64,000 nt of DNA from a virus (Duplodnaviria > Caudoviricetes). The stretch lies in the IMG/VR virus record IMGVR_UViG_2935109043_000001, positions 22,210 through 86,209 of that record. One strand, given 5' to 3'. Below the pieces are notes generated by a model, which made no database searches, was not told where the DNA came from, and saw nothing but the letters and a program-made list of their open reading frames with translations. Positions 8,995 to 61,555 of this stretch are shown piece after piece (within the stretch, counting starts at the first letter, position 1; each line of letters starts with the position of its first letter). The translations under genes were made by a program, and so were the position numbers.

Positions 8995-9033
8995 AGGGTG
9001 CCCCCGGCCAGGGAAAGTGGCCGGGGGCACCCT
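8995..9033. terminator. Bidirectional terminator hairpin between the convergent operons
   Basis: AGGGTGCCCCCGGCCA-N7-TGGCCGGGGGCACCCT. Confidence 0.75.
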
Positions 9034-9054: not shown

Positions 9055-9120
9055 TCAGGTGGGCTCTGTCGTGCCCCAGCCGAGGTCGACCACACCCCAC
9101 CCGATGTCGCTGCTCATCAT
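9055..9120 (-). CDS. 21-aa peptide MMSSDIGWGVVDLGWGTTEPT
   Basis: G-rich RBS (GGGAGGGGG) directly upstream; repeated D[IL]GWG; lies between the PKS stop and the terminator. Confidence 0.5.
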   Translation of the reverse strand: MMSSDIGWGVVDLGWGTTEPT

Positions 9121-9170
9121 GTCCCCCTCCCTGCTGCTTGTGGTGCCCGGCAGCCTACGCCCGGCCGCTG

Positions 9171-10223
9171 TCACGCCGCCCAGGTTCCACGGATCGCGGC
9201 CGTGTTGAAGCCCGGCCCGTAGGCGACCATCACACCGTGTGCCCCGGCGGCGGGCGGCTCCGCGTGCGTCCGCTCCAAAATCCGCAGCACACTGGGACCG
9301 CCCAGGTTCCCCTCGTCCCCGAGCGTCGCCGTCGAGTGGCGTGTGTCGTGCTCGTCCAGGCCGAGAGCCCGCGCCGTGTCCGTGATGATCCGCTGACTGC
9401 CGGGGTGGATGACGGCCCAGTCCACGATGTGCTGCTGGCCGAGCCATCCAGTGACGCCGGGCAGTACGTCGTCCGCGGCGCTGAGGGCTTCCTTCGTGGA
9501 GTCGAAGTGCAGCCCGGCGGCGTCGATGCGGCCGGCGTATCGGGTGAGGCTGTCTGGGAGGACGTGCTCGTACGTGTCGGCCGGCCCGGTGAGGGTGAAG
9601 CCGGGGCCGTGGGGCTGGTTGCTGACGATGGTCGCCGCCGCGGAGTCCCCGAACAGCGCCTTGTAGATCATGTGCTCCACGGCGTTGTCGGCGTGGTTGT
9701 AGATCGCGGAGATGACCTCCGCGGCCACCACTAGGACGCGGGACCCGGGCCGTGCGGCGACCATGTCGGTGGCACGGATGAGGGCCTGTGTGCCGCCGGC
9801 GCAGGCGAGCGTGGTCAGCCCGACCCGCTGCACAGTGGCGGGGAGGCCGAGGCGCTGCACGAGGTGGACGTCGAGGCCGGGAACAGCCCAGCCGGTGGAG
9901 TGCGTGGTGACGATGCCGGTGATGTCCTGCGGGTCGAGGCCGTGGAGTGCGAGCGTGTCGCGTGCGGCTTGCTCAGCCATGTCGAGGGCGTCCTCGAACG
10001 CCGCGGTGGCGCGGGTGTCGATGGTCGCGGTGCCGGTGATGGTGTCGGCGGTGAGGGGCCTGGTGAAGTGCCGGGTCTGCACTCCGGTGTTGCCGACGAT
10101 GCGGAGGATGGACCGCAGCCGCGGGTGGTCGGCGTGGTGGTGCCGGATGTCGTCGGCTATCTCAGCGGTGGTGACTTTGTGGGCGCCGAGGACGGTGGTG
10201 GGCTGGGCAATGTGGATGGGCAT
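9171..10223 (-). CDS. Type III polyketide synthase (chalcone-synthase fold; RppA/PhlD/germicidin-synthase class)
   Basis: Catalytic Cys-His-Asn in LACAGG, IHPGS, GNLGG; ALFGDSAAA; YGPGF; 350 aa. Confidence 0.95.
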   Translation of the reverse strand: MPIHIAQPTTVLGAHKVTTAEIADDIRHHHADHPRLRSILRIVGNTGVQTRHFTRPLTADTITGTATIDTRATAAFEDALDMAEQAARDTLALHGLDPQDITGIVTTHSTGWAVPGLDVHLVQRLGLPATVQRVGLTTLACAGGTQALIRATDMVAARPGSRVLVVAAEVISAIYNHADNAVEHMIYKALFGDSAAATIVSNQPHGPGFTLTGPADTYEHVLPDSLTRYAGRIDAAGLHFDSTKEALSAADDVLPGVTGWLGQQHIVDWAVIHPGSQRIITDTARALGLDEHDTRHSTATLGDEGNLGGPSVLRILERTHAEPPAAGAHGVMVAYGPGFNTAAIRGTWAA

Positions 10224-10270
10224 GGTGGGCTCCCCTGTGGCGGCGTCGGAACGGGTGCGGGGGAGTGCTC

Positions 10271-10300
10271 ACGGTACGGCGGTTTGGCTTGATCGTTGCC
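10271..10300 (-). promoter_or_regulatory. Putative PKS promoter matching the late-gene promoter motif
   Basis: GGCAAC-N18-TACCGT on the minus strand. Confidence 0.55.
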
Positions 10301-10341
10301 TCAGCTTTTCGCCGTCTTGACGCGCGACCAGCCGAGAATGA

Positions 10342-10381
10342 TCCTCAGGCCCGACCGGTTGCTACCGGCCGGGCCTGAGGA
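10342..10381. terminator. Hairpin separating the PKS from upstream genes
   Basis: TCCTCAGGCCCG...CGGGCCTGAGGA. Confidence 0.6.
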
Positions 10382-10395
10382 GTGGCTGAGATGGG

Positions 10396-10749
10396 TCATT
10401 CCTTGTAGGCGATGGGGCCCAGTCCTTGGTGTGCGCGGTCGAGAGCGGCGTACAGCTGTTCCGCGGCGGCCTGCGCGTCATCGAGCCCGCCGAGCGTGGC
10501 CGCCAGGTCAGTGTCGAGGGTGTCCTTGTCGCTGCGGAGGTGCCCTTCTGCGTTCAGGGTCTCGATGTGCTGTCTGATCTGTTGAACGGCTTGGGGGAGG
10601 CGCATGGCGAGCTGGGAGAGGTTGGCGACGACGCTGTAGGCGTCGCCGGGGTACTCCCAGTCGGCTTGTGGGCTTTGGGTGGCGTGGTTGAGGGCGCGGA
10701 TGTGTTCGGCGGCCGTGTCGGCATGCTGGGCGGGGCTCTGCTGGGTCAT
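10396..10749 (-). CDS. Hypothetical helical protein
   Basis: RBS GAAGGTG; AEHIRALNHAT...YPGDAYSVV. Confidence 0.7.
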   Translation of the reverse strand: MTQQSPAQHADTAAEHIRALNHATQSPQADWEYPGDAYSVVANLSQLAMRLPQAVQQIRQHIETLNAEGHLRSDKDTLDTDLAATLGGLDDAQAAAEQLYAALDRAHQGLGPIAYKE

Positions 10750-10786
10750 GGCGTCACCTTCTCGTGCGGGTCGGACAGCTGGGGCG

Positions 10787-11611
10787 TCAGCGGGCTCGGA
10801 GCATCGGCGTGCGGGCGTGCGCACGCTCCGGCCCCGGATGAAACACGAGGATCACGAGGCGGGCACCGGGTGCGGCCATCGGCTGCGCCGCGCACATCGT
10901 CACCCACCCATCACCCAGCACCGCATGCCGTATCGGCCGCTCATCGCCGTCCGGGTGGATGTAGCCCGTCGACCCGTGCGTGTACAGGGCGTTCAGTTCG
11001 GGGTCGGCGTGTACGTCCCGTTCGATGGCTTGAAGCGTCGGGTCGTCGGGGCGGGCGGCGAGCGCGGCCCGGAGCTGGGGGAGGACGAACGGGGCCCAGT
11101 CGGTGGCCCAGTCGGTGAGGTGTTCGCGGCCGTCCCACAGCATCCACCGCATGGTGTTGTCCGGCGCCTCGGCCTGCGGGAACAGTTCGGCGAACTGGCT
11201 GTTGCAGGCCAGCAGGCCCCACGATGCGTCGGTCACGTACGCCATGTGCGTGATGCCGTCCACCGCGGTCTGCCACACCCCCGGCACCTGATGCCCGGAC
11301 TGCGGATACAGCGGCGCCGGCGGGTCCTCCGCCCGCGCGTACCGGTACAGGGCCACCCACTCCTGCTCGGTGAGTGAGAGGAGCTGCGCGACGGCCTGGA
11401 GGAGGTCTGAGGGCGGGTGTTTGTAGATGCCGGATTCGAGGCGGTGGTAGGTGCCGATGGCTCGGCTGGTGAGGATGTCGACTTGTTGTTGGGAGAGGCC
11501 GGGGGCGCGTCGGCCGCTGCCGGTGGGTCGGGTGAGGCCGTGGGTGGTGGGGTCGATGAGGGCGCGGCGTTCTTGGAGGAGGGCTTGGAGGGCTTTCTTG
11601 CGGGTGTGCAT
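10787..11611 (-). CDS. MmyB/MltR-family regulator (XRE HTH plus PAS-like ligand-binding domain)
   Basis: GRRAPGLSQQQVD...YHRLESG; MAYVTDASWGLLACN; NTMRWML; RHAVLG. Confidence 0.92.
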   Translation of the reverse strand: MHTRKKALQALLQERRALIDPTTHGLTRPTGSGRRAPGLSQQQVDILTSRAIGTYHRLESGIYKHPPSDLLQAVAQLLSLTEQEWVALYRYARAEDPPAPLYPQSGHQVPGVWQTAVDGITHMAYVTDASWGLLACNSQFAELFPQAEAPDNTMRWMLWDGREHLTDWATDWAPFVLPQLRAALAARPDDPTLQAIERDVHADPELNALYTHGSTGYIHPDGDERPIRHAVLGDGWVTMCAAQPMAAPGARLVILVFHPGPERAHARTPMLRAR

Positions 11612-34330: not shown

Positions 34331-34822
34331 ATGAGCGCATCCAAAGCACAGCAAGCCGTCACCGCCGAACGCCGCGCCAAGCTCATCCGCATGCGGCTCG
34401 CCGGCCACGAGTTCGACGAGATCGCCCGCGTCCTTGAGTACTCGTCGGCGTCCGCCGCATCCAAAGACATGATCCGCGTCCTGGAGAAGCGCCGCGACGA
34501 ACAGGACGCCGAGGTCAGCGTCTACCGGCAGCAGGAAGGCGACCGCCTCGACGCGCTCCTCCGCGCCCACTGGGACGCTGCCACAAGTGGCGACGACCCA
34601 AAGGCCGCCGATCTCGTCCTGAAGATCATGGACAGGCGCGCCAAGCTCATGGGCCTCGACATGCCCGTCCGCGCCGAAGTGTCCGGCCCCGACGGCGGCG
34701 CCGTCCCCCTCGGCACCGGAGCCCTCGCCGAACTCCAACAGCTCATCTCCATCGCCGGACAGACCGGCGACCCCGACACGCTCCTCGACGGCGAGCAGGA
34801 CACCGGTGACAACACCGACTGA
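34331..34822 (+). CDS. Terminase small subunit
   Basis: N-terminal HTH; RRAKLMGLD; EVSGPDGG; position before the large subunit. Confidence 0.85.
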   Translation: MSASKAQQAVTAERRAKLIRMRLAGHEFDEIARVLEYSSASAASKDMIRVLEKRRDEQDAEVSVYRQQEGDRLDALLRAHWDAATSGDDPKAADLVLKIMDRRAKLMGLDMPVRAEVSGPDGGAVPLGTGALAELQQLISIAGQTGDPDTLLDGEQDTGDNTD

Positions 34823-37316
34823 CCTCGCCGAGGACGCCGTCCTCCAGCACTACCGGACCCTGCCCGTACCCGAACGCCGCAGGGTCGCCCGGCGTGCCAG
34901 CCCCGAACTCCGCCTCCGCCTCGCCTGGGTCGAGCGGCAGATCGCCATGGACCGCTCACCCGGCAGCCTCGCCGCCGTCCTCACCGAAGGCCGCGAGAAG
35001 CAGGCCCGACACCTCGACATGATCGATGCGGTGTTCATGCGGATCGCGGCAGGCGAACGCATGCAGGTGATGATCACGTGCCCACCCCGGCACGGGAAGG
35101 CGCTGGCGCTGGACACTCCGATAGCCACGCCAACAGGCTGGTCGACGATGGGCGAACTCAAGGTCGGCGATCAGGTCTTCGACGAGCAGGGTCGTCCCTG
35201 CAAGGTCACCTGGACGTCGCCCACCTGGTACGACCGGCCCTGCTTTGACGTGGTCACGGACAGCGGAGGCCACATCGTCGCCGACTACGCGCACGAGTGG
35301 AAGGCCAACCTGGACCGGCGGTGCCCGGACCGGCTTTACAACACCTGCGACCTCGCCCGCCCGCGCGGCAAGCAGGCCCTTATCTGGACGACGGGTGCCC
35401 TCCAGCTCCCGGACCAAGACCTCCTCGTCCCGCCCTACTTGCTGGGCGCCTGGCTTGGAGACGGGCGCTCCCTGGACGGCGGTATCACCGCCGAGCCCGA
35501 AGATGCGAAGCACCTGCGATCCGTGATCCACGACCTCGGGTACGAGACAGTCCAGTGGTCCAACCCGACGGTCTTCGGGGTGAACGGGCTGCGTAGCCAG
35601 CTCCGTGAACTTGGCGTGCTCGGCAACAAGCATGTGCCGGCGAAGTACCTGCGGGGGTCCGCCGCGCAGCGCAGAGCCCTGCTCCAAGGTCTGGTGGACA
35701 CTGATGGGTACGTGGCCAAGGACGGCCAAGTTGAGTTCTGCAGCATCAAGCGTGACCTCGCAGAAGCCGTCCAGGAGCTGGTGTACAGCCTGGGCGGGAA
35801 GGCCTCACTCATCGTCGGTGACGCGATGCTCAACGGGCGCTTCATCAGCAAGAAGTACCGCGTCATGTTCTACATGGAAGGGGTCGCCCGGCTGCCCCGT
35901 AAGGCGGTCCTGTGCCGCAGCGGGATACGTGCCAACCGGCACTACGTGATGGCCATGCGCCGCAGCGCCACGGCCACCCGCTGTATCGAAGTGGACTCGC
36001 CGTCGCACCTCTTCCTGGCTGGCCGAGCGATGATCCCCACCCACAACAGCCAGCGGGCATCACGCTGGGGTCCCCTCTGGTACCTGCGACGCAACCCCAC
36101 CGCCCGCGTCATGCTCGCCTCCTACGGCGCCGACCTCGCCGACGACCACGGCCGCTGGGTCCGCGACCAGCTCCGCGACTACGCACCCACCCTCGGCATC
36201 CGCCTCGACGACGGCAGCCGGGCCGCCAACCGCTTCGACCTCGAAGCGCCCCGCAACTCGTCCGTGCGAGGCGGCATGGTCACCGCTGGCGTCGGGGGGT
36301 CTCTGAATGGCAAGGGATTTTCGCTAGGCATCATCGACGACCCGTTCAAGGGCTCCGACGACGCCAACAGTCCAGCTCAGCGCGACCGCGTGTGGAACTG
36401 GTACCAGTCGGTCTTCTACACCCGCCGGGCCCCCGGCGCCTCCATGATCTTGATCAACACCCGCTGGCACGAAGACGACCTCTCAGGGCGCATCCTCTCC
36501 GTCGAACCCGAGAACTGGACCCTCATCGACCTCCCCGCCCTCGCCATGTCCGCCGACGACCCCCTCGGACGCGCCCCCGGTGACGCCCTGTGGCCCGAGC
36601 AGTACGACGCCGAGGAGCTGGCCCGCACCAAACGCGCGGTCGGCGAACGCGTCTGGTGGGCGCTCTACCAGCAGCAGCCCCGCCCCCTCGAAGGCGGCGT
36701 GTGGCAGTGGGCGTGGATCACCGCCAACCGCATCAGCCCCGCCGCGATGCGCGGTATTGACCTGTCTCGCATCGTCGTTGCCATCGACCCATCTGGCGGC
36801 GCTGGCGGAGCGAACGATGAGACCGGCATCGTCGCCGCTGGCCGCACCCGCGATGGCCAGTACTACGTGCTGGAGGACCGCTCCGGCCGGCACGGCGCCA
36901 ACGCGTGGGGCCGCGAAGCGTGCCTCCGCGCCGTCGAGCTGCGCGCGGACGCGTTCGTCGTCGAGACGAACTTCGGCGGCGACATGACGAAGCAGGTACT
37001 CATCCAGGCGTGGCAGGAGCTTGAGCGGCAGGACGCCACCGCAGGTATGCCCATGCCGCGGATCGTGGAGGTCGTCGCCAAGCAGGGCAAGCGACTGCGT
37101 GCGGAGCCGATCGCTCAGCTCTACGAGCAGGGACTCGTCCATCACGTGGGGGAGTGGCCGGCGCTGGAGACGCAGATGGTGACGTGGCTGCCTGGCATGG
37201 ACTCCCCGGACCGCATGGACGCCGCGGTGCACGCGCTGACTGAGCTGGCCGATCCGGCGTCGACGGGCCTGGGTACGGGCGCCTACCAGGACCAGCGGCT
37301 GCGGGGCAGGCGGTGA
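34806..37316 (+). CDS. Terminase large subunit containing an intein
   Basis: PPRHGK|S Walker A split by the intein; IIDDP Walker B; AIDP and SPDRMDA nuclease motifs. Confidence 0.96.
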   Translation: MTTPTDLAEDAVLQHYRTLPVPERRRVARRASPELRLRLAWVERQIAMDRSPGSLAAVLTEGREKQARHLDMIDAVFMRIAAGERMQVMITCPPRHGKALALDTPIATPTGWSTMGELKVGDQVFDEQGRPCKVTWTSPTWYDRPCFDVVTDSGGHIVADYAHEWKANLDRRCPDRLYNTCDLARPRGKQALIWTTGALQLPDQDLLVPPYLLGAWLGDGRSLDGGITAEPEDAKHLRSVIHDLGYETVQWSNPTVFGVNGLRSQLRELGVLGNKHVPAKYLRGSAAQRRALLQGLVDTDGYVAKDGQVEFCSIKRDLAEAVQELVYSLGGKASLIVGDAMLNGRFISKKYRVMFYMEGVARLPRKAVLCRSGIRANRHYVMAMRRSATATRCIEVDSPSHLFLAGRAMIPTHNSQRASRWGPLWYLRRNPTARVMLASYGADLADDHGRWVRDQLRDYAPTLGIRLDDGSRAANRFDLEAPRNSSVRGGMVTAGVGGSLNGKGFSLGIIDDPFKGSDDANSPAQRDRVWNWYQSVFYTRRAPGASMILINTRWHEDDLSGRILSVEPENWTLIDLPALAMSADDPLGRAPGDALWPEQYDAEELARTKRAVGERVWWALYQQQPRPLEGGVWQWAWITANRISPAAMRGIDLSRIVVAIDPSGGAGGANDETGIVAAGRTRDGQYYVLEDRSGRHGANAWGREACLRAVELRADAFVVETNFGGDMTKQVLIQAWQELERQDATAGMPMPRIVEVVAKQGKRLRAEPIAQLYEQGLVHHVGEWPALETQMVTWLPGMDSPDRMDAAVHALTELADPASTGLGTGAYQDQRLRGRR
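35100..36047 (+). mobile_element. Class 3 intein with LAGLIDADG homing endonuclease (316 aa)
   Basis: Starts ALALDTPI (Ala1) and ends IPTHN before Ser; LLGAWLGDG and LLQGLVDTDG; WCT triad (HEW, RCIEV, THN). Confidence 0.92.
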
Positions 37317-38005: not shown

Positions 38006-39814
38006 GTGGGCCTCATCTCCGGAGCCCGGCAACTCGTGATCGACGCGTGGAGCTGGCTGAACTACAAGCCGATCTACGCCGACACCCGAGGCATGCCCCA
38101 CCGTCGGGCTTTCCCCGAGGCCGCCGCCACCTGGGTGCCAGCCGCCGACGAACGACGACTTGCCGCGTACAAGCTCCTCGCTGCGTACACCAGCAACCAG
38201 GCCGGCGAGCTCGCCGCCCTCCGCGACGGCGACGAGGCCCGTGACCGGCGGGAATTCGGCGACCCGTCCATGTTCGTCGACACCCTCGTCGCTCACGTCC
38301 TCGGCGACGGGCAGCGCATCGTCGTCCCCGGCGCCGAAGCCGACGACGACAGCACCGACGAGCAAGCCGTCCGCGTGCAGACCCTCCTCCGCGACTGGGC
38401 GGAACGCGAACTCCTCCCCATGCGGATGCTCCAGACCGAGCAGAAGGCCGTGCCGCTCGGCGACGGCGTGTACCTCCTCCACTGGGACCAGGACAAGCGT
38501 CGCGTCCGCGTCCGCACCTACGACCCGGGCTTCTACTTCCCGGTCCTTCCCGAGGACGGCGACGGATCTGACTATCCCGAGCGTGTGCACCTCGCCTGGG
38601 AGCTGCCTGAGGACCCGAAGCGGGGCGTGAAGGCGCGGGTGCGCCGCATCACCTACGAACTTGGATGGATCGAACAGGGCGAGAGGGATGTAGTCCGAGG
38701 TGGCCTCGAAGACGCCGACAGTGACCAAGAGCCCTCGGTGCAGCCGCGGCAGTACCCGTGGAACGACGAGCCGTCCTACCGCACCTGCTACCTGACCGAC
38801 GCGACGTGGGAGCTCGGCGACCTCACCGGGCCCGTCGATGTCGACTCCCTGCCGATGGACCGTGCTTCCTTCGCGGAAGGCGTGGATGGTGTGGTACTCG
38901 ACCGACGCGACCTCATGATCGATTTCGTGCCGCTTATCCACGTCCCCAACACCGTCCCCCCGGCCGAGGAGCACTGGGGGCAGTCCAGCCTCGCCAAGGC
39001 CCTCCAGGTCTTCGACGAGCTCGCCGGCGCCGACACCGACTCGTCCCGCGCGTCCGCGACGACCGGATCGCCGATCATCCACCTGTCCGGCAAGGCCGCC
39101 TCCGGCCGCAACCAGCTCGCCGTCGGCCCCGGCATGATCCTGGAGACTGGCGAAGGGGGGCGCATGGACACCGTCAACACCGCCCCGCAGCTTCAGGAAC
39201 TCCGCAGCCACCGCGCCGACCTCGCCGACCGGGCCGCGGCCGTCGTTCGTCTCCCCGCTGTAGCCCTCGGCACCCTCGACCCCACTAAGGTCCCCTCCGG
39301 CTACGCCCTCGCCCTGTCCCTCGGGCCCCTCGACTCTCTGATCTCCTCGATGCGTCTCGCCCGCGCGCACAAGGACCAGCTGCTCCTCAAGTTCGTGCAG
39401 CGCCTTCACCTCGCTGGGCAGCATCCCGAATGGGAAGGCGTCACCCCGCAGCCGGCGATCCTCGTCCGCGGCCCCTACACGCCCACCGACCAGGCCGCCG
39501 TGCTGGAGCAGGTCACCACCGGAGTCGCCGGGGGAGTGCTTTCCCTGGAGACGGGGGTGCGGATGCTGCAAGAGGCCGGCTACCCGATCGAGGACACCGA
39601 GCAGGAGATACGGCAGATCGAGTCCCGCGCGTTTGCCGCGGCGAAGGATTTGGCGGATGCCCTCGGTAACGCCACCGCGGTCGCTGAGTTCCTCGACCGC
39701 AAGGCCCCCGAGGCTGAGGAGGCGCCCGACGTTCGACTCCCGCCGATCCCCGCCAACGCGGCCGAGGCCGACGCCGCCGACCCCCTCCAGGACGGCGACG
39801 ACGATGAGGCGTAA
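38006..39814 (+). CDS. Portal protein
   Basis: Position after terminase; 602 aa; GDGVY, IHVPN, WGQSSL, SGYAL motifs; RBS GGAGG. Confidence 0.85.
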   Translation: MGLISGARQLVIDAWSWLNYKPIYADTRGMPHRRAFPEAAATWVPAADERRLAAYKLLAAYTSNQAGELAALRDGDEARDRREFGDPSMFVDTLVAHVLGDGQRIVVPGAEADDDSTDEQAVRVQTLLRDWAERELLPMRMLQTEQKAVPLGDGVYLLHWDQDKRRVRVRTYDPGFYFPVLPEDGDGSDYPERVHLAWELPEDPKRGVKARVRRITYELGWIEQGERDVVRGGLEDADSDQEPSVQPRQYPWNDEPSYRTCYLTDATWELGDLTGPVDVDSLPMDRASFAEGVDGVVLDRRDLMIDFVPLIHVPNTVPPAEEHWGQSSLAKALQVFDELAGADTDSSRASATTGSPIIHLSGKAASGRNQLAVGPGMILETGEGGRMDTVNTAPQLQELRSHRADLADRAAAVVRLPAVALGTLDPTKVPSGYALALSLGPLDSLISSMRLARAHKDQLLLKFVQRLHLAGQHPEWEGVTPQPAILVRGPYTPTDQAAVLEQVTTGVAGGVLSLETGVRMLQEAGYPIEDTEQEIRQIESRAFAAAKDLADALGNATAVAEFLDRKAPEAEEAPDVRLPPIPANAAEADAADPLQDGDDDEA

Positions 39815-41475: not shown

Positions 41476-42531
41476 ATGAGCACCACTCTCGACAGGCTCC
41501 TCCAGAACGTCACGCCGGAGGACATCAACGCCTATATCAACGGTCTGCCCACTCCGAACACGTACGCCCTCACGCAGAGCGTCATCCCGGAGCGGAAGAT
41601 CTACGGGCCGAAGTTCCGCATCGAGTCGAACAAGCGCCGCGTCAACGCCGCGAAGTTCCGCGCCTTCGACACCCCGCACGCGCTGGCGAGGCGCCAGGCC
41701 GAGCGGGTCGTCAACGAGGGCATGCTGCCCCCGGTCGGCCAGACCCTGGAGATGGGGGAGCTGTCCCTGATCCTCCACCACGCCCGCCGCGGCGCCGACG
41801 ACCAGGAGTTCATCGACGCCCTGTACGACGACCTGGAGCGTCACTTCACCTCCATCAAGACGGCCATGGAGATCGCCGCCGGTGAACTCCTCGCCACCGG
41901 CGTCGTCAACCTCCCGGGCGTCGGACTCGACGTCAACTGGAACGTCCCCACGGAGAACAAGCCCGTCGCGGCCACCCCGTGGGACCAGGCCGGCGCCACC
42001 CCGCTCACCGACGAGATGGCGTGGATTCGCTACCTCAAGAGCGTCGGCGCGCCGCGTCCCGCCCGGGTCATCACCTCCGAGCGTGCCGCGTCGGTACTGG
42101 CGTCGAACCTGGAGTACCGGACGGCGTTCTGGAACTCCTCCAGCCCGGAGACCACCCCCTCCGCGACGCTGTCCCCGCCGGACGTCAACGCCGTTCGTGC
42201 CCGCTGGAACCTGCCGCCCATCGAGATCTACGACGAGCAGGTCTGGTCCGACGACCAGTACATCCGCACGACCCCCGAGTCGCTGTGGGCCATGGTCCCG
42301 CCGAACCCGGAGCAGTGGGCGCAGACCCAGTACGGCGTCACCGCGGAGCAGGACAACCTGGACTCGACCGGGAACCCCGGCCTGGAGGCGTCCCGCGAGC
42401 CGGGCATGTACGTCTCCTACGAGAAGAAGTCCAACCCGGTGCAGTTCTCGACGACGGCGAACGCGGTGGCGATGCCGGTGCTGTACGTGCCGAACTTCCA
42501 CATCAGCGCCACCGTCCTGTCGGAGGACTGA
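41476..42531 (+). CDS. Major capsid protein
   Basis: 351 aa; AKFRAFD, MLPPVGQ, AVAMPVL; position. Confidence 0.9.
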   Translation: MSTTLDRLLQNVTPEDINAYINGLPTPNTYALTQSVIPERKIYGPKFRIESNKRRVNAAKFRAFDTPHALARRQAERVVNEGMLPPVGQTLEMGELSLILHHARRGADDQEFIDALYDDLERHFTSIKTAMEIAAGELLATGVVNLPGVGLDVNWNVPTENKPVAATPWDQAGATPLTDEMAWIRYLKSVGAPRPARVITSERAASVLASNLEYRTAFWNSSSPETTPSATLSPPDVNAVRARWNLPPIEIYDEQVWSDDQYIRTTPESLWAMVPPNPEQWAQTQYGVTAEQDNLDSTGNPGLEASREPGMYVSYEKKSNPVQFSTTANAVAMPVLYVPNFHISATVLSED

Positions 42532-49130: not shown

Positions 49131-52100
49131 ATGGCCCAGTGGAACCTGTCCGTGGACCTCCGCGGCCAAGGCACCAGCTTGGCGCGGAGCCTCCAGCAGT
49201 CCGCCCGCCACGCCCGCACCCTCGCCACCGCCGTCCGCGCCGCAGACCAGCAGACCGCCGCCCTCGGCCGCACCAGTCGTACCACCGCCACCAGCGTCGG
49301 ACGCCTCGGCCGGCAAGCCTCCAGCGCCGCCCGTGACCTACGACAGATCGCCCGAGCCGCCCGTGACGCCGACCGGGCGCTCTCCCGCATCCAGCGGGAT
49401 ATACGGGTCCGCGTCCGCCTCGACGACGACATCACCGGCGCCAGCACGTCCGCGGCAGCGGCCCTCCGCACAGTGCAGGCCGCCTCCGGAGACACCTCCC
49501 GCGCCCTTACGCTTCTCCAGCGGCGGGCGGAGCGTACCGCTGACGCTCTTGACGATGTGGCCTCCTCGGCGCTCGGTGCTGCTACGACACTCAGCGCCCT
49601 GAACGCCGTCGCGGACGGGTCAACGAGCCGTTTGGACGGGCTGTCTGCCCGGGCCCGCACCCTCCGCAGCGAGATGGGCGACCTCGACGCGACGATCGGC
49701 CGCGTCCACACCCGGCTCGGGAGCCTCGGCGGGCAGCTTCGTACCGCTGGCGACGGGGCGAGCGACGCCAGCGGTAACACCAGCAACCTCATCCAGGCCG
49801 TCATCGCGCTGGGTACCGCGCTTGTTCCGGTGGCTGCGTCACTGGCTCCGATCGCTGCTGGTCTGGGCGCGGCGGGCGCGGCCGCGGCGGCGTACGGGCT
49901 GGCGATCGGCGGCCAGATCGTGCAGATGTCGGAGGCGTCGGAGGCGCAGCAGAAGTATGACGACGCCGTCTCGCAGCACGGGAAGCACTCGGAGGAGGCG
50001 GCGAAGGCTGAGGGGGAGTGGCTGCGGCAGGTGAAGGCTATGCCGCCGGCGACTCGGCAGGCGGCGGCCGCGCTGTCCGTGCTCAAGGATGAGTACGGCG
50101 ACTGGTCGGACATGCTCGCGGCGGACACGATGCCGTCGGTCACCAAGGGCCTCCAGCTCGCGACGATGGCTCTGCCGAAGTTCACGCCGATGGTGCGGGG
50201 CGCCTCTCGGGAGCTGGACCGATTCCTCAACGTCGCCGCCGGCGGTATGGCGACGCCGGGCTTCGACCGGTTCATGACCCGGTTCGCCGAGTTCTCCACC
50301 GCCACCCTGGCGCGCGCGACGAGCGGTCTGGTACGGCTCACGCAGGCGATGGACACCGGGAACATGGGCTCGGGCCTCAAGGAGTTCATGGACTGGGCAC
50401 GGTCGGTGGGGCCGCTCGTCGCGGAGACGTTCAGCAACTTGACCGAGGCCCTCTTCAACCTGCTGCAGGCCGCGTCGGACATGGGTGTCGGTGTCCTCAC
50501 CGCCGTCAACGCCCTCGCCCAGCTCGTCAACGCCGTCCCGCCCGAAGCCCTCTCCGTTTTCATCCAGCTCTACGCCGCGTTCAAGCTCGTCGCCGTCGGC
50601 ATTGCCGCAGTCGGCGCGGTCGCGGGCGGTAGCGCTGCCGCCGGGCTGGCCGCGTTCATCCGCTCCGCGCGCTTCGGCGGGCTCGGTGCGGCGATCGGCG
50701 GCGTCACGCAGCGCATGAGCGCCATGTCGAAGGTGGCGGGCAGCCTCGGTGCGCTCGGTGCGGTCGCAGTCGGTATCAGCATGCTCGCTGAGCACGCGCG
50801 TGGTGCACCGCCCGACGTGGACCGGCTCACGTCCAGCCTGAAGGAATTGGCGGCCACAGGCGGTACGAAGTTCTCAGGCGAGCTAGCGAAGACTTTCGGC
50901 AGCATGGACGAGCTGGTTGCCAAGGCGTCCAGCATCGACAGAGACATGGGGCAGCTCGACTTCGCCAAGAGTCTGACGTTCGGTCTCGTTGGGAACGGCG
51001 GTCCGATCGATTCGGCAGTCCGTGCGCTTGATGATCTGGTCCGTCAGGGCGACAGCTTGAATGCATTGGAGGAGGACTTCAAGGGCCTCGATGAGGCGTT
51101 CGCGCAGATGGCGACCAGCGGTTACGCGGATCAGGCTGCGAACAGCTTCGAGAAGTTCGAGCACGCGCTGCGGGAGTCCGGGAAGTCGTCGGCGGACATC
51201 GCAAAGATGTTCCCCGAGTACAAGGCTGCTGTTAAGGGTCTGGAGGCGGAGCAGCAGCTGGCCGCGCAGGGCATGGGGCTGTTTGGGCAGGCGTCGCAGG
51301 CGGTGCAGGCGAAGCTCGACGCGCAGAAGGCGTCGGCGGACGGGCTGCGGCAGTCCATCGTCGCCCTCAACGACGTGAACAGGGCGGGCCTCGGCGGGAT
51401 GAACGCCTTCGAAGCGGCGATCGATGCGACGGCGAAGGCTGCGAGGGACAACAAGAACGCCCTCCGAATGGTGAACGGCGAACTCGACCTGAACAGCGAG
51501 GCAGCCCGGAACGCCGACACGGCGCTGCGTGACCTTGCCGCCAAGACCGACGAGGCCGCGACGGCCGCTCGCCAAGCGGAGAAGCCGTGGGAGTACGTCA
51601 ACGGCATCTACGAGCGCGGCCGCGCGTCCCTCGTTCGGTACGGGAAGCAAATGGGCCTCAGCGGGGCCGAGGCGAGTCTGCTTGCCAACCGAATCCTCCA
51701 GATCCCGGAGCAGAAGGTCTCCACGATCGAGATGCGGCGTGAGGACGCCATCGCCGGACTCGACCAGGTCATCAAGAAGATGCAGGCGACGCCCGGGTCG
51801 AAGAGCATCAAGGTCAACGCGCTGACCGCCGACGCGCGAGCCATGCTCGAATCCCTCGGCTACCGCGTCAAGACGCTGCCCGACGGCCGAGTGCAGGTCA
51901 CCGCGCTCACCGGCTCCGCTCTCGGCGGGCTCCGCGCCGTCAAGGCCGCCCGTGACTCCCTGTCCGACAAGACCATCACCATCACCACCAACTACCGGGT
52001 CATCGGCCAGCAGGCACGCCGGTCCGGGTCGCACGGCACACAGCTCGGCTACGCGGACGGTGGTGTCGTCGACTACTACGCGGACGGTGGGCTGCGTGGC

Positions 52101-53465
52101 CCGAGCAGGCAGCGCGGCGGCCTCCGGCACTTCGCGAGCGGCTCTGAGAACCACGTCGCGCAGATCGCCCCGGCCGGGTCGTGGCGGGTGTGGGGCGAGC
52201 CCGAGACCGGCGGCGAGGGCTACGTGCCGTTCGCTCCGTCGAAGCGCCCCCGCTCCCGTGCGATCACGGAGGAGATCGTGCGGCGCCTCGGCGGTGACCC
52301 GCGCGCCATCCAGTGGAACGCGAACGGGTCGGTGACCGACTGGACGTACGACCCGAAGTCCGGGTCGCTGTACTCGGCGTCCGACGCCGGACGCGCCGGA
52401 CACAAGACCAGGAAGGTCAAGGGCAAGAACGGCAAGGTCACCATCAAGGAGATCGAATACTTCGACCTCGGCGCCGTCGAGAAGAAGCTCAAGTCCTCCG
52501 CGAAGGCCGCGACCGCATTCAACAAGAACCTCGGCATCATCACCGACCGCGCAGGCGCCGACGTGGCCGCCGCCCTGTCCTCCATGGGCGAGGATGGCGT
52601 GAAGCTCGCCGCGAAGATGGCCAAGGGCAGCAAGAAGTACGTCGACCAGATGTCCAAGGCACTCCTGGACCTCCAGAAGACCGCCAAGGCCAGCCTCACC
52701 GACTACACCCGCGCCCTCAACGCCGACACCAAGCTCGACGCCACGTTCGCCAAGAACCTGGCGATCCTCGCCGGCCGCGGCCACGGCGACCTCGCCGCGC
52801 AGCTCGCCTCGCAGAACGACACCGCCGCCCAGCAGCTCGCCGCCGCCGCGGTCAAGGACAACAAGAAGGCCAGCAGCGCGAACGACGCCGCGAAGAAAGC
52901 CAACGCTGCGCTCACGTCCGAGCAGGTCGAGCAACTCGTCGCCATCATCGCCGCCATCAAAACCAGCAAAACCGGCATCCACGACGTTGCCGACGCCACC
53001 GGCCTCGGCGAGGACGTCATCATCGACATCGGCTCCAAGGCCAAGACGCAGATCGTCGCCGCCCTCGGCTCCCGGTCGTCGCGCTTCACCACCGACCTCG
53101 CCAAGGCTGTCGCCGGCAAGGCGTACGCGAACGGCGGCATCCGCGAAGGCATCTACTCCACCGCCGGCGGCGCCGTCACGTTCGCGGAGCCCTCGACCGG
53201 CGGGGAGGCGTTCATCCCGCTCGGCGCGAACAAGCGCGACAAGGCCCTCCCCGTCCTCGCCGACGTCATGTCCCGCTTCGGCGTCGGCCGCACCGCCGCG
53301 CAGGACGCCCGCGTCGTCATCATCCGCGAGCAGGGCCCCCTCGTCGGCTCCCAGACATGGCAGATCACCGGCGGCGGCAACCCCGAGGACACCGCCCGGC
53401 AGATCGCAGCCCGCCACGCGTTCCAACTGCGCCGCCTGGCGCGAGGAGGGGCGGCAGCCCGATGA
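49131..53465 (+). CDS. Tape measure protein
   Basis: 1444 aa, Ala-rich helical; two A(D/N)GG...EPxTGGE motifs. Confidence 0.95.
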   Translation: MAQWNLSVDLRGQGTSLARSLQQSARHARTLATAVRAADQQTAALGRTSRTTATSVGRLGRQASSAARDLRQIARAARDADRALSRIQRDIRVRVRLDDDITGASTSAAAALRTVQAASGDTSRALTLLQRRAERTADALDDVASSALGAATTLSALNAVADGSTSRLDGLSARARTLRSEMGDLDATIGRVHTRLGSLGGQLRTAGDGASDASGNTSNLIQAVIALGTALVPVAASLAPIAAGLGAAGAAAAAYGLAIGGQIVQMSEASEAQQKYDDAVSQHGKHSEEAAKAEGEWLRQVKAMPPATRQAAAALSVLKDEYGDWSDMLAADTMPSVTKGLQLATMALPKFTPMVRGASRELDRFLNVAAGGMATPGFDRFMTRFAEFSTATLARATSGLVRLTQAMDTGNMGSGLKEFMDWARSVGPLVAETFSNLTEALFNLLQAASDMGVGVLTAVNALAQLVNAVPPEALSVFIQLYAAFKLVAVGIAAVGAVAGGSAAAGLAAFIRSARFGGLGAAIGGVTQRMSAMSKVAGSLGALGAVAVGISMLAEHARGAPPDVDRLTSSLKELAATGGTKFSGELAKTFGSMDELVAKASSIDRDMGQLDFAKSLTFGLVGNGGPIDSAVRALDDLVRQGDSLNALEEDFKGLDEAFAQMATSGYADQAANSFEKFEHALRESGKSSADIAKMFPEYKAAVKGLEAEQQLAAQGMGLFGQASQAVQAKLDAQKASADGLRQSIVALNDVNRAGLGGMNAFEAAIDATAKAARDNKNALRMVNGELDLNSEAARNADTALRDLAAKTDEAATAARQAEKPWEYVNGIYERGRASLVRYGKQMGLSGAEASLLANRILQIPEQKVSTIEMRREDAIAGLDQVIKKMQATPGSKSIKVNALTADARAMLESLGYRVKTLPDGRVQVTALTGSALGGLRAVKAARDSLSDKTITITTNYRVIGQQARRSGSHGTQLGYADGGVVDYYADGGLRGPSRQRGGLRHFASGSENHVAQIAPAGSWRVWGEPETGGEGYVPFAPSKRPRSRAITEEIVRRLGGDPRAIQWNANGSVTDWTYDPKSGSLYSASDAGRAGHKTRKVKGKNGKVTIKEIEYFDLGAVEKKLKSSAKAATAFNKNLGIITDRAGADVAAALSSMGEDGVKLAAKMAKGSKKYVDQMSKALLDLQKTAKASLTDYTRALNADTKLDATFAKNLAILAGRGHGDLAAQLASQNDTAAQQLAAAAVKDNKKASSANDAAKKANAALTSEQVEQLVAIIAAIKTSKTGIHDVADATGLGEDVIIDIGSKAKTQIVAALGSRSSRFTTDLAKAVAGKAYANGGIREGIYSTAGGAVTFAEPSTGGEAFIPLGANKRDKALPVLADVMSRFGVGRTAAQDARVVIIREQGPLVGSQTWQITGGGNPEDTARQIAARHAFQLRRLARGGAAAR

Positions 53466-59216: not shown

Positions 59217-60038
59217 GTGCCCGACACCACCATCCGGCAATACGAAGTAGCAGGCCACCTCGGCCGGCACCAGGTCTTGGACCCGCGCAGCCTCGCCTAC
59301 CGGCGGCGCTACGACGGGCAGCCGCTCCGCGCCACAGCGTGGGAGCCACGCGTCCCGGTCCTCGACCAGCGGAACCTGCACGCCCAGGGGGTCCGCACCA
59401 GCGTGCACGGTCACGCCGAGGACGTGGACGCGCTCGCCTCCTGCACGGGTAACGCGGCTGTCGCTGCCCTGTCCGTGCTCCTCACCCCCGAGCGCGCCAC
59501 GCAGGCCGGACTCGACACCCGCGGCCCCGCCGCCTGCCAGAACTATGCGATCGGCCTGTACTCGCAGGCCACCCACCTCGACCAGTGGCACGACTACGCG
59601 TGGCCGTCGCAGGACACCGGCTCATCCGGGCTCGGCGTCGCCAAGGCCATGCGTGCGCGTGGGCTGATCGACCAGTACGGGCACGCCACCACCGCCGAAG
59701 AGCTGTGTGTGCTGCTCCAGACCGGGCCGGTGCTCCTCGGCATGCCTTGGCATGCGGCGATGTCCGAGCCCGACCCGGACGGGTTTATCGACTCCGACCC
59801 TGCTTGGCAGGACAGCCCGGTGGAGGGCGGCCACGAGGTGTGTGTGACCGCCCTGGAGGCCGTCGCGACGGACGGCGACCAGCTCATGCCCGAGCACACG
59901 ATCCTCCGCATCCGCAACTCGTGGGGCAGCAGTTGGGGCGACCACGGTGATGGCCGTCTCCGCCTCACCACCTACCTCAAGCTCCGCCCCGAGATCGACC
60001 TCATCCAGCCCCGCCTCGACACAAGGACCCGCCCATGA
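59217..60038 (+). CDS. Papain-like (C1) cysteine peptidase
   Basis: LDQ...SCTGNA; GGHE; RNSWGSSWG. Confidence 0.88.
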
Positions 60039-61555
60039 CCACCTGGCACGTCGCCGTCGACCACGTCGAAGACGACCACATCACCACCACCTACTTCGGC
60101 ACCTGCGACCAGGCCCACATCGACGAGGTGCGCGCCATCGCAGACCTCGACGAGTCCGGCCGCCTCGTCCGCGAGCACCCCCGCACCGAGGGCGCGTTCT
60201 GTGTCCTGCGTGAGGACGGCGACCTCGACGTGTACGTCCCCGACGGCGTCACCGAAGACCGCGTATACGCCCCGGACCCCGACCCCAAGGGCGAGAAGAT
60301 CGGCTCGGCCGAGTGGAGCTGCCACGAAGACGGCTGCTCGTGGACGTACAGCGCCCCCATCGTCGACAACGCGGTCCGCGCCGAGGGCTACAACGAGGCG
60401 CACCAGGCGCACCAGAAGGAAGCCCACGGCAAGCAGGTCGACACCGGCGGGGTCCTCGAAGCAGGAAGCACGTCCGTCTTGGGGGAGGACGGGCCCGAGG
60501 AGTACGTACCCCTACCCCGCGGCGCGTCCGGCCCCGCCTACGTCGCCGGAGTCACCCGCTTCGGCGGACAGGCCATCGGCGGCGCCATGGACACCCCCGG
60601 CAACCCGCCCCGCGTCGTCTGGCACACCACCGAGTCGCCCGCCGGCGGCTCCTACTTCACGTCGATCGCCGCCTACCTGATCCGGGTCGGCGCCGAACCG
60701 CAGGTCATCTACGACCCGGTCACCGACAAGCTCGGCCAGTTCGGGCCCCTCAACCGGTCCGGCCGCGCCCTCCGCAACGACGGCAGCCGCCGCACGAACC
60801 GTGAGGGCAAGGTGTGCATCCAGGTCGAGGTACTCGGCCGCGCCGCGTTCCCGTGGACGAAGGGCTTCGACCCGGCGGAGAAGCCGAACTTCCGGAAGCT
60901 CCTCGCGGCGATGCGGGCACACGGTGTGCCCGACACGTGGCCGGCGGGGAAGCCCCCGGCGACGGCCGCGGCCGCGACGAAGCGGGTCCGGTCGACGTGG
61001 CAGTCGAAGGGCGGCCACTTCGGGCACTCCCAGGTACCCGGTAACGATCACTGGGACCCGGGCGGCATCGACACCAGCATCGTGCCGGGCAAGGCCGGCG
61101 GATCGAGCGGCGGCGACACCAAACCGCCGACGACCAGCGGCACGTACACGGTGAAGAAGGGCGACACCCTGTCCGCCATCGCTGCGGCGCACGGCACCAC
61201 GGTGAAGGCCATGGCCGACCTGAACGGCCTGAAGGACCCGAACAAGCTGTCCGTCGGGCAGAAGCTGAAGGTCCCCGGCAAGGCGTCCACCCCGGCGAAG
61301 CCGCAGTACGAGCCGTTCCCCGGCGCCGCGTTCTTCCACACCGGCCGGAAGAGTCCCATCGTCACCGCGATGGGCCGGCGCCTCGTCGCCGAAGGGGTCG
61401 CCAAGTACAAGCAGGGCCCCGGCCCGAACTGGACCAACGTCGACAAGGCGTCCTACGCCGCCTGGCAGCGGAAGCTCGGCTACTCCGGCGCCGACGCCGA
61501 CGGCATCCCCGGCAAGACCTCGTGGGACAAGCTCCGCGTCCCCAAGCAGCTCTGA
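60035..61555 (+). CDS. Endolysin: N-terminal extension, Zn amidase, LysM, peptidoglycan-binding domain
   Basis: WHTTE; [14 protein letters not shown]; [13 protein letters not shown]; [11 protein letters not shown]. Confidence 0.93.

What the first reader, a model, noticed from the sequence alone, without database searches (positions are those of the whole stretch)
9055..11611. Prophage-encoded type III PKS with an MmyB-family ligand-binding regulator: candidate polyketide signalling system
Seen: an intact type III PKS (Cys-His-Asn) bounded by hairpins on both sides. An XRE/MmyB regulator lies two genes upstream on the same strand, and both sit among typical phage early genes. Established: stand-alone type III PKSs (RppA, PhlD, germicidin synthase Gcs) make small diffusible pyrones/phenols, and MmyB/MltR proteins have a PAS-like pocket for lipophilic ligands. 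Inference: this is a synthase-plus-receptor pair giving the phage a small-molecule density signal (arbitrium-like logic, but polyketide), or a way to manipulate host germination/development.
Basis: partly seen in the sequence, partly recalled or inferred. Interest (0 to 1): 0.9.

Follow-up and report, generated by a model that had tools for sequence, protein, structure and literature searches.

The report
Known violapyrone genes on a phage-plasmid
The polyketide synthase and its regulator are real, but they are the already characterised violapyrone gene pair vioA/vioB, carried as cargo on an 86-kb Streptomyces plasmid that is also a phage; nothing yet shows that they act as a phage signal.

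Summary
Window 9171-10223(-) encodes an intact 350-aa type III PKS (Cys141/His273/Asn306). Window 10787-11611(-) encodes an HTH + MmyB/MltR-type regulator. Strong hairpins lie on both sides of the PKS. The element has terminase, portal, capsid, tape measure, endolysin, ParAB and two integrases.

It is not an integrated prophage. The 86,209-bp record is a near-complete circular phage-plasmid related to pCQ3, pCQ4 and pZL12.

The pair is not new. The PKS is 94% identical to pCQ3.110c and the regulator 95% to the pCQ3/pCQ4 regulators. Huang et al. 2016 report these as 95% identical to VioA and VioB of S. somaliensis. There, vioA on an ~85-kb plasmid makes violapyrone alpha-pyrones, and deleting vioB raises the yield about 8-fold.

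Added here:
- The regulator lies directly upstream of the PKS in 94 of 96 related loci.
- 64 of 80 species-representative genome loci carry only the pair, in non-phage chromosomal settings.
- The PKS tree needs at least three context switches.
- In phage-plasmids the PKS promoter belongs to a motif class shared with the portal and lysis-region promoters.

The density-signal idea remains untested and is weakened by these results. Interest is low to moderate.

The parts
9171..10223 (-). vioA-type type III polyketide synthase, 350 aa (P0001)
   Evidence: Pfam Chal_sti_synt_N/C. C141/H273/N306 are invariant. 94.0% identical to the PKS of pCQ3, NC_013449. It carries I174, L190, Y229, G231 and S242, the residue numbers named for VioA in PMC5898002 and PMC6024985 (sequence).
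10787..11611 (-). vioB-type regulator, XRE HTH plus MmyB/MltR ligand-binding domain, 274 aa (P0002)
   Evidence: MLTR_LBD 52.1 bits and HTH_31 23.8 bits. The model's best fold match is 3pxp. 95.3% identical to the pCQ3 regulator and 94.8% to the pCQ4 regulator.
10396..10749 (-). 117-aa ORF inserted between regulator and PKS; no family found
   Evidence: 96% identical to WP_015060956.1, which lies at the same place in pCQ4. Absent at this place from the 94% relatives L086 and NZ_CP109240. No Pfam or PHROG hit.
10342..10381 (-). 18-bp GC-rich hairpin after the inserted ORF and upstream of the PKS promoter; terminator-like, no T tract
   Evidence: -42.6 kcal/mol, z -7.1
10271..10300 (-). PKS promoter-like site, GGCAAC-N18-TACCGT
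   Evidence: One of 5 window matches to GGCAAY-N17-19-TANNNT, against 0.26 expected. It aligns with the conserved -10 block in 95 PKS upstream regions.
9055..9120 (-). 21-aa ORF with a strong Shine-Dalgarno sequence, just after the PKS stop
   Evidence: Sequence read. Shared only with L086, which has an extra GWG repeat. Significance unknown.
8995..9033 (-). 16-bp hairpin downstream of the PKS and small ORF; terminator-like
   Evidence: -44 kcal/mol, z -6.4
34806..37316 (+). Terminase large subunit of the carrier element, with an inserted LAGLIDADG segment
   Evidence: phrog_38 1.4e-100. Terminase_6N/6C plus LAGLIDADG_3. Most relatives match only residues 411-836.
38006..39814 (+). Portal protein of the carrier element
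   Evidence: phrog_64 1.5e-10
41476..42531 (+). Major head protein of the carrier element
   Evidence: phrog_29 8.5e-43
49131..53465 (+). Tape measure protein of the carrier element
   Evidence: phrog_10780 7.4e-15
60035..61555 (+). Endolysin of the carrier element
   Evidence: phrog_17214 1.1e-82

Best explanation
These are the vioA/vioB (violapyrone) genes, carried as accessory cargo by a circular ~86-kb Streptomyces phage-plasmid of the pCQ3/pCQ4/pZL12 type.

Taken from the literature on a ~95%-identical plasmid: the PKS condenses fatty-acid-derived beta-keto-acyl starters with methylmalonyl- or ethylmalonyl-CoA and lactonises them to 3-methyl-4-hydroxy-6-alkyl-alpha-pyrones. It needs no tailoring enzymes. 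The upstream regulator holds PKS expression down.

Shown here: the regulator has an MmyB/MltR-type PAS-like domain. The PKS has its own promoter between two strong hairpins.

Inferred: a lipophilic ligand, either an acyl precursor or the pyrone itself, relieves the repression. The cassette moves as a two-gene unit. It has passed between phage-plasmids and chromosomes at least three times, and both genes stay under purifying selection in either setting.
For: Identity chain:
- The PKS is 94.0% identical to the NC_013449 (pCQ3) PKS.
- The regulator is 95.3% identical to the pCQ3 regulator and 94.8% to the pCQ4 regulator.
- PMC4924298 Table 1 (section 6 read) gives VioA (350 aa) as 95% identical to pCQ3.110c and VioB as 95% to pCQ4.19c.
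- That paper places the genes on an ~85-kb circular plasmid. Deleting vioA abolishes violapyrone B. Deleting vioB raises it about 8-fold. Knock-outs of the flanking ORFs have no effect.
- The window protein is also 350 aa and carries I174, L190, Y229, G231 and S242, the numbering used for VioA (G231L from the abstract listed).
- vioA alone yields violapyrones in S. coelicolor M1146.

The pair as a unit:
- The regulator lies directly upstream on the same strand in 94 of 96 related loci. One exception is cut at a contig start and the other has a fragmented PKS. The HSP gap is 58-380 nt.
- Of the 40 best PKS-bearing PLSDB plasmids, 35 have the regulator within 1.3 kb upstream (my hand cross-tabulation).
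- dN/dS for the PKS is 0.14-0.44 in 9 phage-plasmid pairs and 0.05-0.25 in 7 chromosomal pairs. For the regulator it is 0.10-0.42 in 8 phage-plasmid pairs (the ninth could not be scored) and 0.02-0.14 in 7 chromosomal pairs.

The carrier:
- Structural and lysis genes are present.
- ParA, ParB and two integrases lie in the left 22 kb of the record.
- 29% of a 25-kb stretch matches phage ZL12 at 77% nucleotide identity.
- ZL12 itself has pZL12.99 (regulator) next to pZL12.100 (type III PKS, 72.6% identical).
- 26 of the 34 Streptomyces/Kitasatospora plasmids with a terminase match of about 50% identity or more also carry the PKS.
- The record ends are adjacent within the plasmid's galE.
Against: - The VioA and VioB sequences themselves were not compared. 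Orthology rests on two ~95% links through pCQ3 and pCQ4.
- The product of this particular enzyme is not shown.
- No expression data exist for this element.
- Six plasmids carry a 61-63% VioB-like regulator with no PKS among the 60 listed PKS rows. One was inspected and has no PKS downstream. The regulator can therefore work apart from the PKS.
- MmyB itself is thought to be an activator (recalled), whereas VioB is reported as negative. The family name does not fix the mechanism.
- A lytic cycle has been reported only for pZL12 (title of Zhong et al. 2010, seen in the reference list of PMC4487206). It has not been reported for the pCQ3/pCQ4 lineage.
Confidence: 0.85

Rival explanations
1. Phage density signal. 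The pyrone diffuses between cells carrying the element, binds the MmyB-type regulator, and so sets lysogeny, induction or transfer, in arbitrium-like logic.
For: - A synthase and a ligand-binding regulator are strictly paired on a phage-type element.
- In phage-plasmids the PKS promoter carries the same GG(C/G)AA(C/T)-N16-20-TAnnnT signature found in front of the portal, lysis-region and replication genes: 5 window sites against 0.26 expected. The strict motif occurs in 20 of 31 phage-plasmid loci and only 3 of 64 chromosomal loci. The PKS is therefore wired into the element's own transcription programme.
- Alpha-pyrones are signals in Photorhabdus (recalled).
Against: - 64 of 80 species-representative genome loci keep the pair with no other gene of this element nearby. 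The pair therefore works without a phage.
- 8 of the 34 Streptomyces/Kitasatospora plasmids with a terminase match of about 50% identity or more lack the PKS.
- One of these, pSAM1, has neither gene yet keeps the promoter motif at its portal and lysis-region genes. That motif is thus not the regulator's operator.
- None of the 95 regions upstream of the regulator gene has the motif.
- The only reported regulator phenotype is on product yield.
Confidence: 0.05
2. Germicidin-like developmental autoregulator or competition factor. The pyrones act on spores, hyphae or neighbouring Gram-positive bacteria, and so benefit the host and the element it carries.
For: - VioA chemistry is described as similar to that of germicidin synthase Gcs, and VioA clusters with Cpz6, DpyA and Gcs (PMC5898002 passages).
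- Violapyrones have weak anti-MRSA activity, best MIC 25 ug/mL.
- The cassette was retained under purifying selection after it moved to chromosomes, as expected for a host-beneficial trait.
- A wblA developmental regulator controls vioB and vioA transcription.
Against: - No germination or competition test of violapyrones was seen in the passages read.
- The antibacterial activity is weak.
- That germicidins inhibit germination is recalled, not taken from any call.
Confidence: 0.3
3. The database names are right: the enzyme is a PhlD-type phloroglucinol synthase or a THN synthase, not a pyrone synthase.
For: - Most database homologues are named PhlD, and a few THN synthase.
- The best solved relative is THNS 1u0m.
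Against: - The match to 1u0m is only 142.7 bits over the full length.
- No NCBIfam model reaches its cut-off. The best is DpgA, at 118.5 bits against 425.
- The vioA knock-out and heterologous expression give alkyl-alpha-pyrones for a ~95% relative.
- The position that aligns with THNS Tyr224 appears to be Gly231 here (my reading of the alignment; the numbering offset is inferred).
Confidence: 0.03

Closest known systems
vioA/vioB violapyrone cluster on the ~85-kb circular plasmid of Streptomyces somaliensis SCSIO ZH66 (Huang et al. 2016, PMC4924298; Hou et al. 2018, PMC5898002)
   Same: A 350-aa type III PKS with an XRE-type regulator of about 272 aa just upstream, on an ~85-kb circular plasmid. 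Both are ~95% identical to the same pCQ3/pCQ4 proteins that match the window at 94-95%. The VioA residue numbers are the same.
   Different: - The window has a 117-aa ORF and a hairpin between the two genes, as in pCQ4.
- Those papers treat the carrier as a plasmid. The word 'phage' occurs 0 times in PMC4924298.
- The VioA/VioB sequences were not compared directly.
Streptomyces plasmid-phage pZL12 / phage ZL12 (GQ919031), genes pZL12.99 and pZL12.100
   Same: The same gene pair in the same order, a homologous structural module, and a size of about 90 kb. The ZL12 PKS promoter has the same motif, CAGGGGCAAT-N18-TATGTT.
   Different: The PKS is only 72.6% identical, and large parts of the genome do not match at nucleotide level. 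The pZL12 paper was not held, so I do not know what it says about the PKS.
Germicidin synthase Gcs and Cpz6 (pyrone-forming bacterial type III PKSs)
   Same: The same fold and catalytic triad. VioA is reported as 53% identical to Cpz6 and as Gcs-like in its substrates.
   Different: Gcs (3v7i) is a distant match, 136 bits. cpz6 sits inside the caprazamycin cluster, not beside an MmyB-type regulator.
MmyB / MltR family regulators (PF17765; structure 3pxp)
   Same: An N-terminal XRE HTH plus a PAS-like ligand-binding domain.
   Different: 16% identity to 3pxp. VioB is reported as a negative regulator, whereas MmyB is regarded as an activator (recalled). The ligand is unknown.
Phage communication systems (arbitrium AimP/AimR) and pyrone signalling (PpyS/PluR); both recalled
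   Same: Only the outline: a small-molecule or peptide producer sits next to a ligand-binding regulator on, or acting on, a mobile element.
   Different: No evidence that the regulator binds the product or controls phage genes. The pair is mostly found outside phages.

Membership tests
Type III polyketide synthase | Cys-His-Asn catalytic triad | tested here: met
   C141, H273 and N306 are invariant in 16 of 16 sequences.
Type III polyketide synthase | Chalcone/stilbene synthase N- and C-terminal domains in a stand-alone protein of about 350 aa | tested here: met
   PF00195 93.8 bits and PF02797 28 bits, both over their cut-off of 27. 117 solved relatives at E<=1e-5.
VioA (violapyrone synthase) orthologue | High identity to the characterised VioA | tested here: inconclusive
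   Only by transitivity: 94.0% to pCQ3.110c, which is reported as 95% identical to VioA.
VioA (violapyrone synthase) orthologue | Same length and the residues probed in VioA (I174, L190, Y229, S242; G231) | tested here: met
   All five are present at those numbers in the 350-aa protein.
VioA (violapyrone synthase) orthologue | Two-gene cluster with vioB directly upstream on an ~85-kb circular plasmid | tested here: met
   One small ORF is inserted, as in pCQ4.
VioA (violapyrone synthase) orthologue | Makes 3-methyl-4-hydroxy-6-alkyl-alpha-pyrones | not testable with these tools
   Needs expression and LC-MS.
MmyB/MltR family regulator | MLTR ligand-binding (PAS-like) domain | tested here: met
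   PF17765 52.1 bits against a cut-off of 26.3. The best fold match is 3pxp, E 3.3e-8 over 274 columns.
MmyB/MltR family regulator | N-terminal XRE-type helix-turn-helix | tested here: inconclusive
   HTH_31 scores 23.8 bits, under its cut-off of 27. The model has helices at 41-93, and 3pxp aligns over the full length.
MmyB/MltR family regulator | Binds a lipophilic ligand | not testable with these tools
   No ligand test was possible.
pZL12-type phage-plasmid | Phage packaging, head, tail and lysis genes | tested here: met
pZL12-type phage-plasmid | Plasmid partition genes and an extrachromosomal circular replicon | tested here: met
   ParA and ParB. The record ends are adjacent within galE of an 86,299-bp circular plasmid. 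IMG/VR classes the record as 'linear', 95% complete.
pZL12-type phage-plasmid | Forms infective particles | not testable with these tools
   Reported only for pZL12, and seen only as a title in a reference list.
Phage communication (arbitrium-like) system | The receptor controls lysis-lysogeny genes of the phage | tested here: not met
   - The pair persists without phage genes in 64 of 80 genome loci.
- The only motif shared between the PKS promoter and phage promoters also occurs in pSAM1, which has no regulator.
- No regulator operator was identified.
Phage communication (arbitrium-like) system | The receptor binds the product of the neighbouring synthase | not testable with these tools
   Needs binding assays.

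The most novel reading that the evidence does not exclude
Phage-plasmids of the pZL12 family are the main reservoir and vehicle of the violapyrone cassette. On these elements the PKS is driven by the element's own promoter class, shared with the portal and lysis-region genes. Pyrone production would then rise when the element becomes transcriptionally active. The pyrone, a longer-chain germicidin analogue, would feed back through the MmyB-type repressor and act on neighbouring spores or hyphae. That would make it a small-molecule output of a temperate phage that shapes host development or the phage's own decisions.
Probability: 0.07. Interest if true: 0.8.

Novelty: already known. Interest (0 to 1): 0.3.

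Why it matters
It is in fact a gene pair whose product (violapyrones) and regulator phenotype were published in 2016-2018 for a ~95%-identical plasmid. The presence of the PKS on pZL12 and pSLE1 has also been noted in print (PMC4487206; PMC10023795 states that type III PKSs were found only in prophages on plasmids).

What may still be useful is the link between the two literatures. The 'plasmid' that carries vioAB is a temperate phage-plasmid. This makes violapyrone one of the few cases where a phage-borne biosynthetic gene has a chemically defined product.

The comparative data also suggest repeated movement of the cassette between phage-plasmids and chromosomes. On phage-plasmids the PKS promoter is of the element's own type. 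Why a phage carries an alpha-pyrone synthase can now be tested directly with existing strains and compounds.

Tried and rejected
- Expression: the look-up of sequencing runs listed no RNA holder. Read laying was therefore not used. This says nothing about expression.
- pZL12 paper: PMC2897331 is not held.
- Supplements are closed. Table S3 of PMC5898002 (the 21 other vioAB genomes) and the mutagenesis figures could not be seen. They may already list some of the elements found here.
- PHROGs has no family for the PKS, the regulator or the inserted ORF.
- phmmer of the regulator against PDB sequences gave only a chance-level hit. The fold search was needed to reach 3pxp.
- The promoter/terminator scan found nothing in 8000-13000. 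Folding showed the hairpins.
- Operator search: a Gibbs search of 95 PKS upstream regions returned a conserved -10 block (gTG-N3-GTAnnTTG) and a C-rich CACCCCCACA element, not a clear dyad. I could not define the regulator's binding site.
- I first considered the GGGGCAAC element as that site. I rejected this because pSAM1 has the element but no regulator.
- No sigma-70 region-2 gene lies in the record. The factor that reads this promoter class is unknown.
- I first suspected that galE at the record ends was host flank. Searches showed it is plasmid-borne.
- S. coelicolor's three type III PKSs (RppA, Gcs, Srs-type; PMC4573997, passages) were considered as relatives. None is described with such a regulator.
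- Literature on novelty:
  - 'MmyB-like' with 'type III polyketide synthase' gave 0 papers.
  - 'violapyrone' with 'phage' gave 6 papers. None links the two by title or abstract start, and I saw the listing only.
  - 'type III polyketide synthase' with 'phage-plasmid' and 'Streptomyces' gave 1 paper.

Limits of the analysis:
- The AU test group was named after the tree had been seen.
- The root is a midpoint on one long branch (L099), so the direction of transfer is suggestive only.
- The label 'PP' means at least one other gene of this record within 10 kb. For L099 it rests on a single 28% match.
- My gene calls are a GC3 heuristic, not a gene finder.
- The plasmid cross-tabulations were made by hand. 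In one search, 11 of 71 PKS rows were not listed. In one search, 2 of 62 regulator rows were not listed.
Full report
**What is there.** Window 9171-10223(-) is an open 350-aa frame with strong GC3 bias. It matches the N- and C-terminal chalcone/stilbene synthase domains. Its best solved relatives are S. coelicolor THNS (1u0m, 142.7 bits) and germicidin synthase (3v7i). No NCBIfam model reaches its cut-off; the best is DpgA, at 118.5 bits against 425. In an alignment with 15 homologues of 63-93% identity, Cys141, His273 and Asn306 are invariant.

Window 10787-11611(-) encodes a 274-aa protein with the MmyB-like ligand-binding domain (52.1 bits, cut-off 26.3) and an XRE-type HTH just under its cut-off. 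A model built from 23 sequences (mean pLDDT 83.7) finds the MltR structure 3pxp as its best match by far (E 3.3e-8). PAS domains follow.

Between the two genes lies a 117-aa ORF (10396-10749). It is 96% identical to a protein at the same place in plasmid pCQ4. It has no family match.

Two GC-rich hairpins bracket the PKS: 10342-10381 (z -7.1) upstream and 8995-9033 (z -6.4) downstream.

**The carrier.** The window is bases 22210-86209 of an 86,209-bp virus record. It encodes a terminase, portal, major head protein, tape measure, tail fibre, endolysin and an FtsK/SpoIIIE-like protein. It also encodes SSB, an ATP-dependent ligase, a replication initiator and a repressor-like HTH protein. The left 22 kb of the record holds two tyrosine integrases, a C5 methylase, ParB and ParA.

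The structural module matches Streptomyces phage ZL12, the 90-kb plasmid-phage pZL12, at 77% nucleotide identity over 29% of a 25-kb query.

The right end of the record maps to 22310-25102 of the circular 86,299-bp S. albidoflavus plasmid NZ_CP109240.1, and the left end to 25677-27081. Both lie in the plasmid's galE. The record is therefore an almost complete circular phage-plasmid cut in galE, not a prophage with host flanks.

**What the pair is.** tblastn finds the PKS in phage ZL12 (72.6% identity, annotated as a type III PKS, with a regulator directly upstream). It also finds it in 58 PLSDB plasmids at E<=1e-40. Most of the 40 listed are Streptomyces replicons of 85-102 kb. The best are pCQ3 of strain W9 (94.0%), NZ_CP109240 (94.0%) and pCQ4 of strain W75 (92.0%). 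The regulator is 95.3% identical to the pCQ3 and NZ_CP109240 regulators and 94.8% to the pCQ4 regulator.

Huang et al. 2016 (PMC4924298; passages and sections 6 and 23 read) studied the same pair on an ~85-kb circular plasmid of S. somaliensis SCSIO ZH66.
- VioA (350 aa) is 95% identical to pCQ3.110c.
- VioB (272 aa) is 95% identical to pCQ4.19c.
- Deleting vioA abolishes violapyrone B.
- Deleting vioB raises it about 8-fold.
- Flanking ORFs have no effect, so the cluster has two genes.

Hou et al. 2018 (PMC5898002; passages) add the following.
- vioA alone gives 14 violapyrones in S. coelicolor M1146.
- VioA groups with Cpz6, DpyA and Gcs.
- S242 is essential.
- 21 other genomes carry vioAB, 'most' on a plasmid.

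The window protein is the same length as VioA and has I174, L190, Y229, G231 and S242 at the numbers used for VioA. I could not align VioA itself. Orthology is by transitivity, but it is tight.

**Is the pair a unit, and is it phage-specific?** A profile scan gave 80 loci from species-representative genomes (the best 80 of 136 relatives found) and 16 IMG/VR loci. The regulator lies directly upstream on the same strand in 94 of these 96. One exception starts at the PKS and the other has a fragmented PKS. The HSP gap is 58-380 nt, median 131.5. The 563-nt gap in the window is due to the inserted ORF.

Among the 40 best PKS plasmids, 35 have the regulator within 1.3 kb upstream. One has it 3.7 kb away on the other strand. 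Four have none listed (hand cross-tabulation).

Only 16 of the 80 genome loci share any other gene of this record within 10 kb, and 14 of those 16 lie on contigs of 87-102 kb. The other 64 share the pair alone. They fall into at least five different syntenies. The neighbours sampled there are a GFO/IDH oxidoreductase, a GNAT, an isochorismatase, a MarR regulator and an acyl-CoA dehydrogenase, among others. None points to a biosynthetic cluster.

In the other direction, 26 of the 34 Streptomyces/Kitasatospora plasmids with a terminase match of about 50% identity or more have the PKS, and 8 do not. pSAM1, inspected in full, has neither gene.

Six plasmids have a 61-63% regulator homologue but no PKS among the listed rows. 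The one inspected has a sigma factor and small ORFs downstream instead.

**Evolution.** A tree of 96 PKS sequences needs only three changes between phage-plasmid and other contexts, against a shuffled mean of 27. An IQ-TREE quick search gives the same count. Chromosomal clades of 10 and 9 rows are nested inside phage-plasmid clades with 98-100 support. A third clade of 45 rows is sister to these. Holding all 64 chromosomal rows together costs 278.6 log-likelihood units (p-AU 3.5e-47). That group was named after the tree had been seen. The root is a midpoint on one long branch, so transfer from phage-plasmid to chromosome is suggested, not shown.

Both genes are under purifying selection in both settings.

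**A promoter class.** The PKS upstream regions share a conserved -10 block. In the window, GGCAAC lies 18 nt upstream of TACCGT. The pattern GGCAAY-N17-19-TANNNT occurs 5 times in the window against 0.26 expected, and 0 of 100 shuffles reached 5. There is a sixth site in the left part of the record.

The window and record sites lie as follows:
- about 45 nt before the PKS;
- about 180 nt before the replication initiator;
- about 40 nt before the portal gene;
- about 58 nt before the first gene of the endolysin region;
- just before dcd;
- before a gene upstream of the integrases.

The pattern was derived from the PKS site, so one match is there by construction.

pSAM1, which lacks the pair, has the GGGGAAY variant before its portal gene and before its lysis region. 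ZL12 has the motif at its PKS. The motif is therefore not the regulator's operator. It is a promoter type of these elements, read by an unknown factor; no sigma-70 region-2 gene is in the record.

The strict motif precedes the PKS in 20 of 31 phage-plasmid loci but only 3 of 64 chromosomal loci. The rate in shuffled sequence is 0.3%. On phage-plasmids the PKS thus seems wired into the element's own transcription, and that wiring decays after transfer to a chromosome.

**Verdict.** The molecular function is known from the literature for a ~95% relative. The presence of a type III PKS on pZL12 and pSLE1 is also in print (PMC4487206; PMC10023795).

It is weakened by the cassette's wide life outside phages. 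It cannot be excluded, because the regulator's ligand and the ecological role of violapyrones are unknown.

The points that appear not to have been made in the searchable literature are these:
- the violapyrone 'plasmid' is a temperate phage-plasmid of the pZL12 family;
- the regulator belongs to the MmyB/MltR family;
- the cassette has moved repeatedly between phage-plasmids and chromosomes;
- the PKS carries a promoter of the element's own type.

Noticed in passing
window 34806-37316 (+): The terminase large subunit is 836 aa. Most relatives match only residues 411-836, pCQ4 matches the full length at 98%, and a LAGLIDADG_3 domain lies at residues 288-335. This looks like an intein or homing-endonuclease insertion that is present in some members of the family and absent in others. 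Some relatives have an HNH gene there instead.
   Followed up: partly
window 10271-10300(-), 20915-20944(-), 37936-37965(+), 59076-59105(+), 63095-63125(+); record position 2586(+): The promoter-like class (A/G)GGGCAAY-N17-19-(C)(G/A)TAnnnT occurs 5 times in the window against 0.26 expected. The sites lie before the PKS, replication initiator, portal, lysis-region, dcd and an integrase-side gene. A GGGGAAY variant lies before the portal gene and the lysis region of pSAM1. The factor that reads it is unknown, and no sigma factor gene is in the record.
   Followed up: partly
window 10396-10749 (-): A 117-aa ORF is inserted between vioB and vioA, 96% identical to a pCQ4 protein. Homologues in L026, L028, L092, L094 and L101 lie upstream of the regulator instead. 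It has a weak sub-threshold match to a type VII secretion effector family (TIGR04197, 19.1 bits against 26). The vioB-vioA spacer seems to be a site where small genes come and go; pCQ4 has two there.
   Followed up: partly
window 9055-9120 (-): A 21-aa ORF (MMSSDIGWGVVDLGWGTTEPT) with a strong Shine-Dalgarno sequence lies right after the PKS stop and before the terminator hairpin. The closest relative, L086, has a longer version with one more GWG repeat. More distant relatives have none.
   Followed up: partly
window 63731-64000 and record 1-130 (galE); window 63132-63704 (dcd): The phage-plasmid carries its own UDP-glucose 4-epimerase (galE, from the annotation of NZ_CP109240) and a dCTP deaminase. 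The assembly break of the record falls inside galE.
   Followed up: partly
window 29975-32203 (+): An FtsK/SpoIIIE-like protein (phrog_31069). Its pSAM1 counterpart is annotated as a conjugative DNA transfer protein. The element may therefore transfer by Streptomyces-type conjugation as well as by particles.
   Followed up: no
L105 (NZ_CP108296.1 10917-18684) and five plasmids of 175-223 kb listed: VioB-like regulators of 61-63% identity occur without a PKS. In L105 the downstream genes are a small ORF, DUF3995, an RNA polymerase sigma factor and an SRPBCC protein.
   Followed up: partly
rows H192 and H193 (S. anulatus plasmids NZ_CP109342.1 and NZ_CP108641.1): A more distant type III PKS (about 40% identity) overlaps or abuts a gene annotated as a ScbR-family autoregulator-binding regulator on these two large linear plasmids. 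This is a different regulator partner for a related PKS.
   Followed up: no
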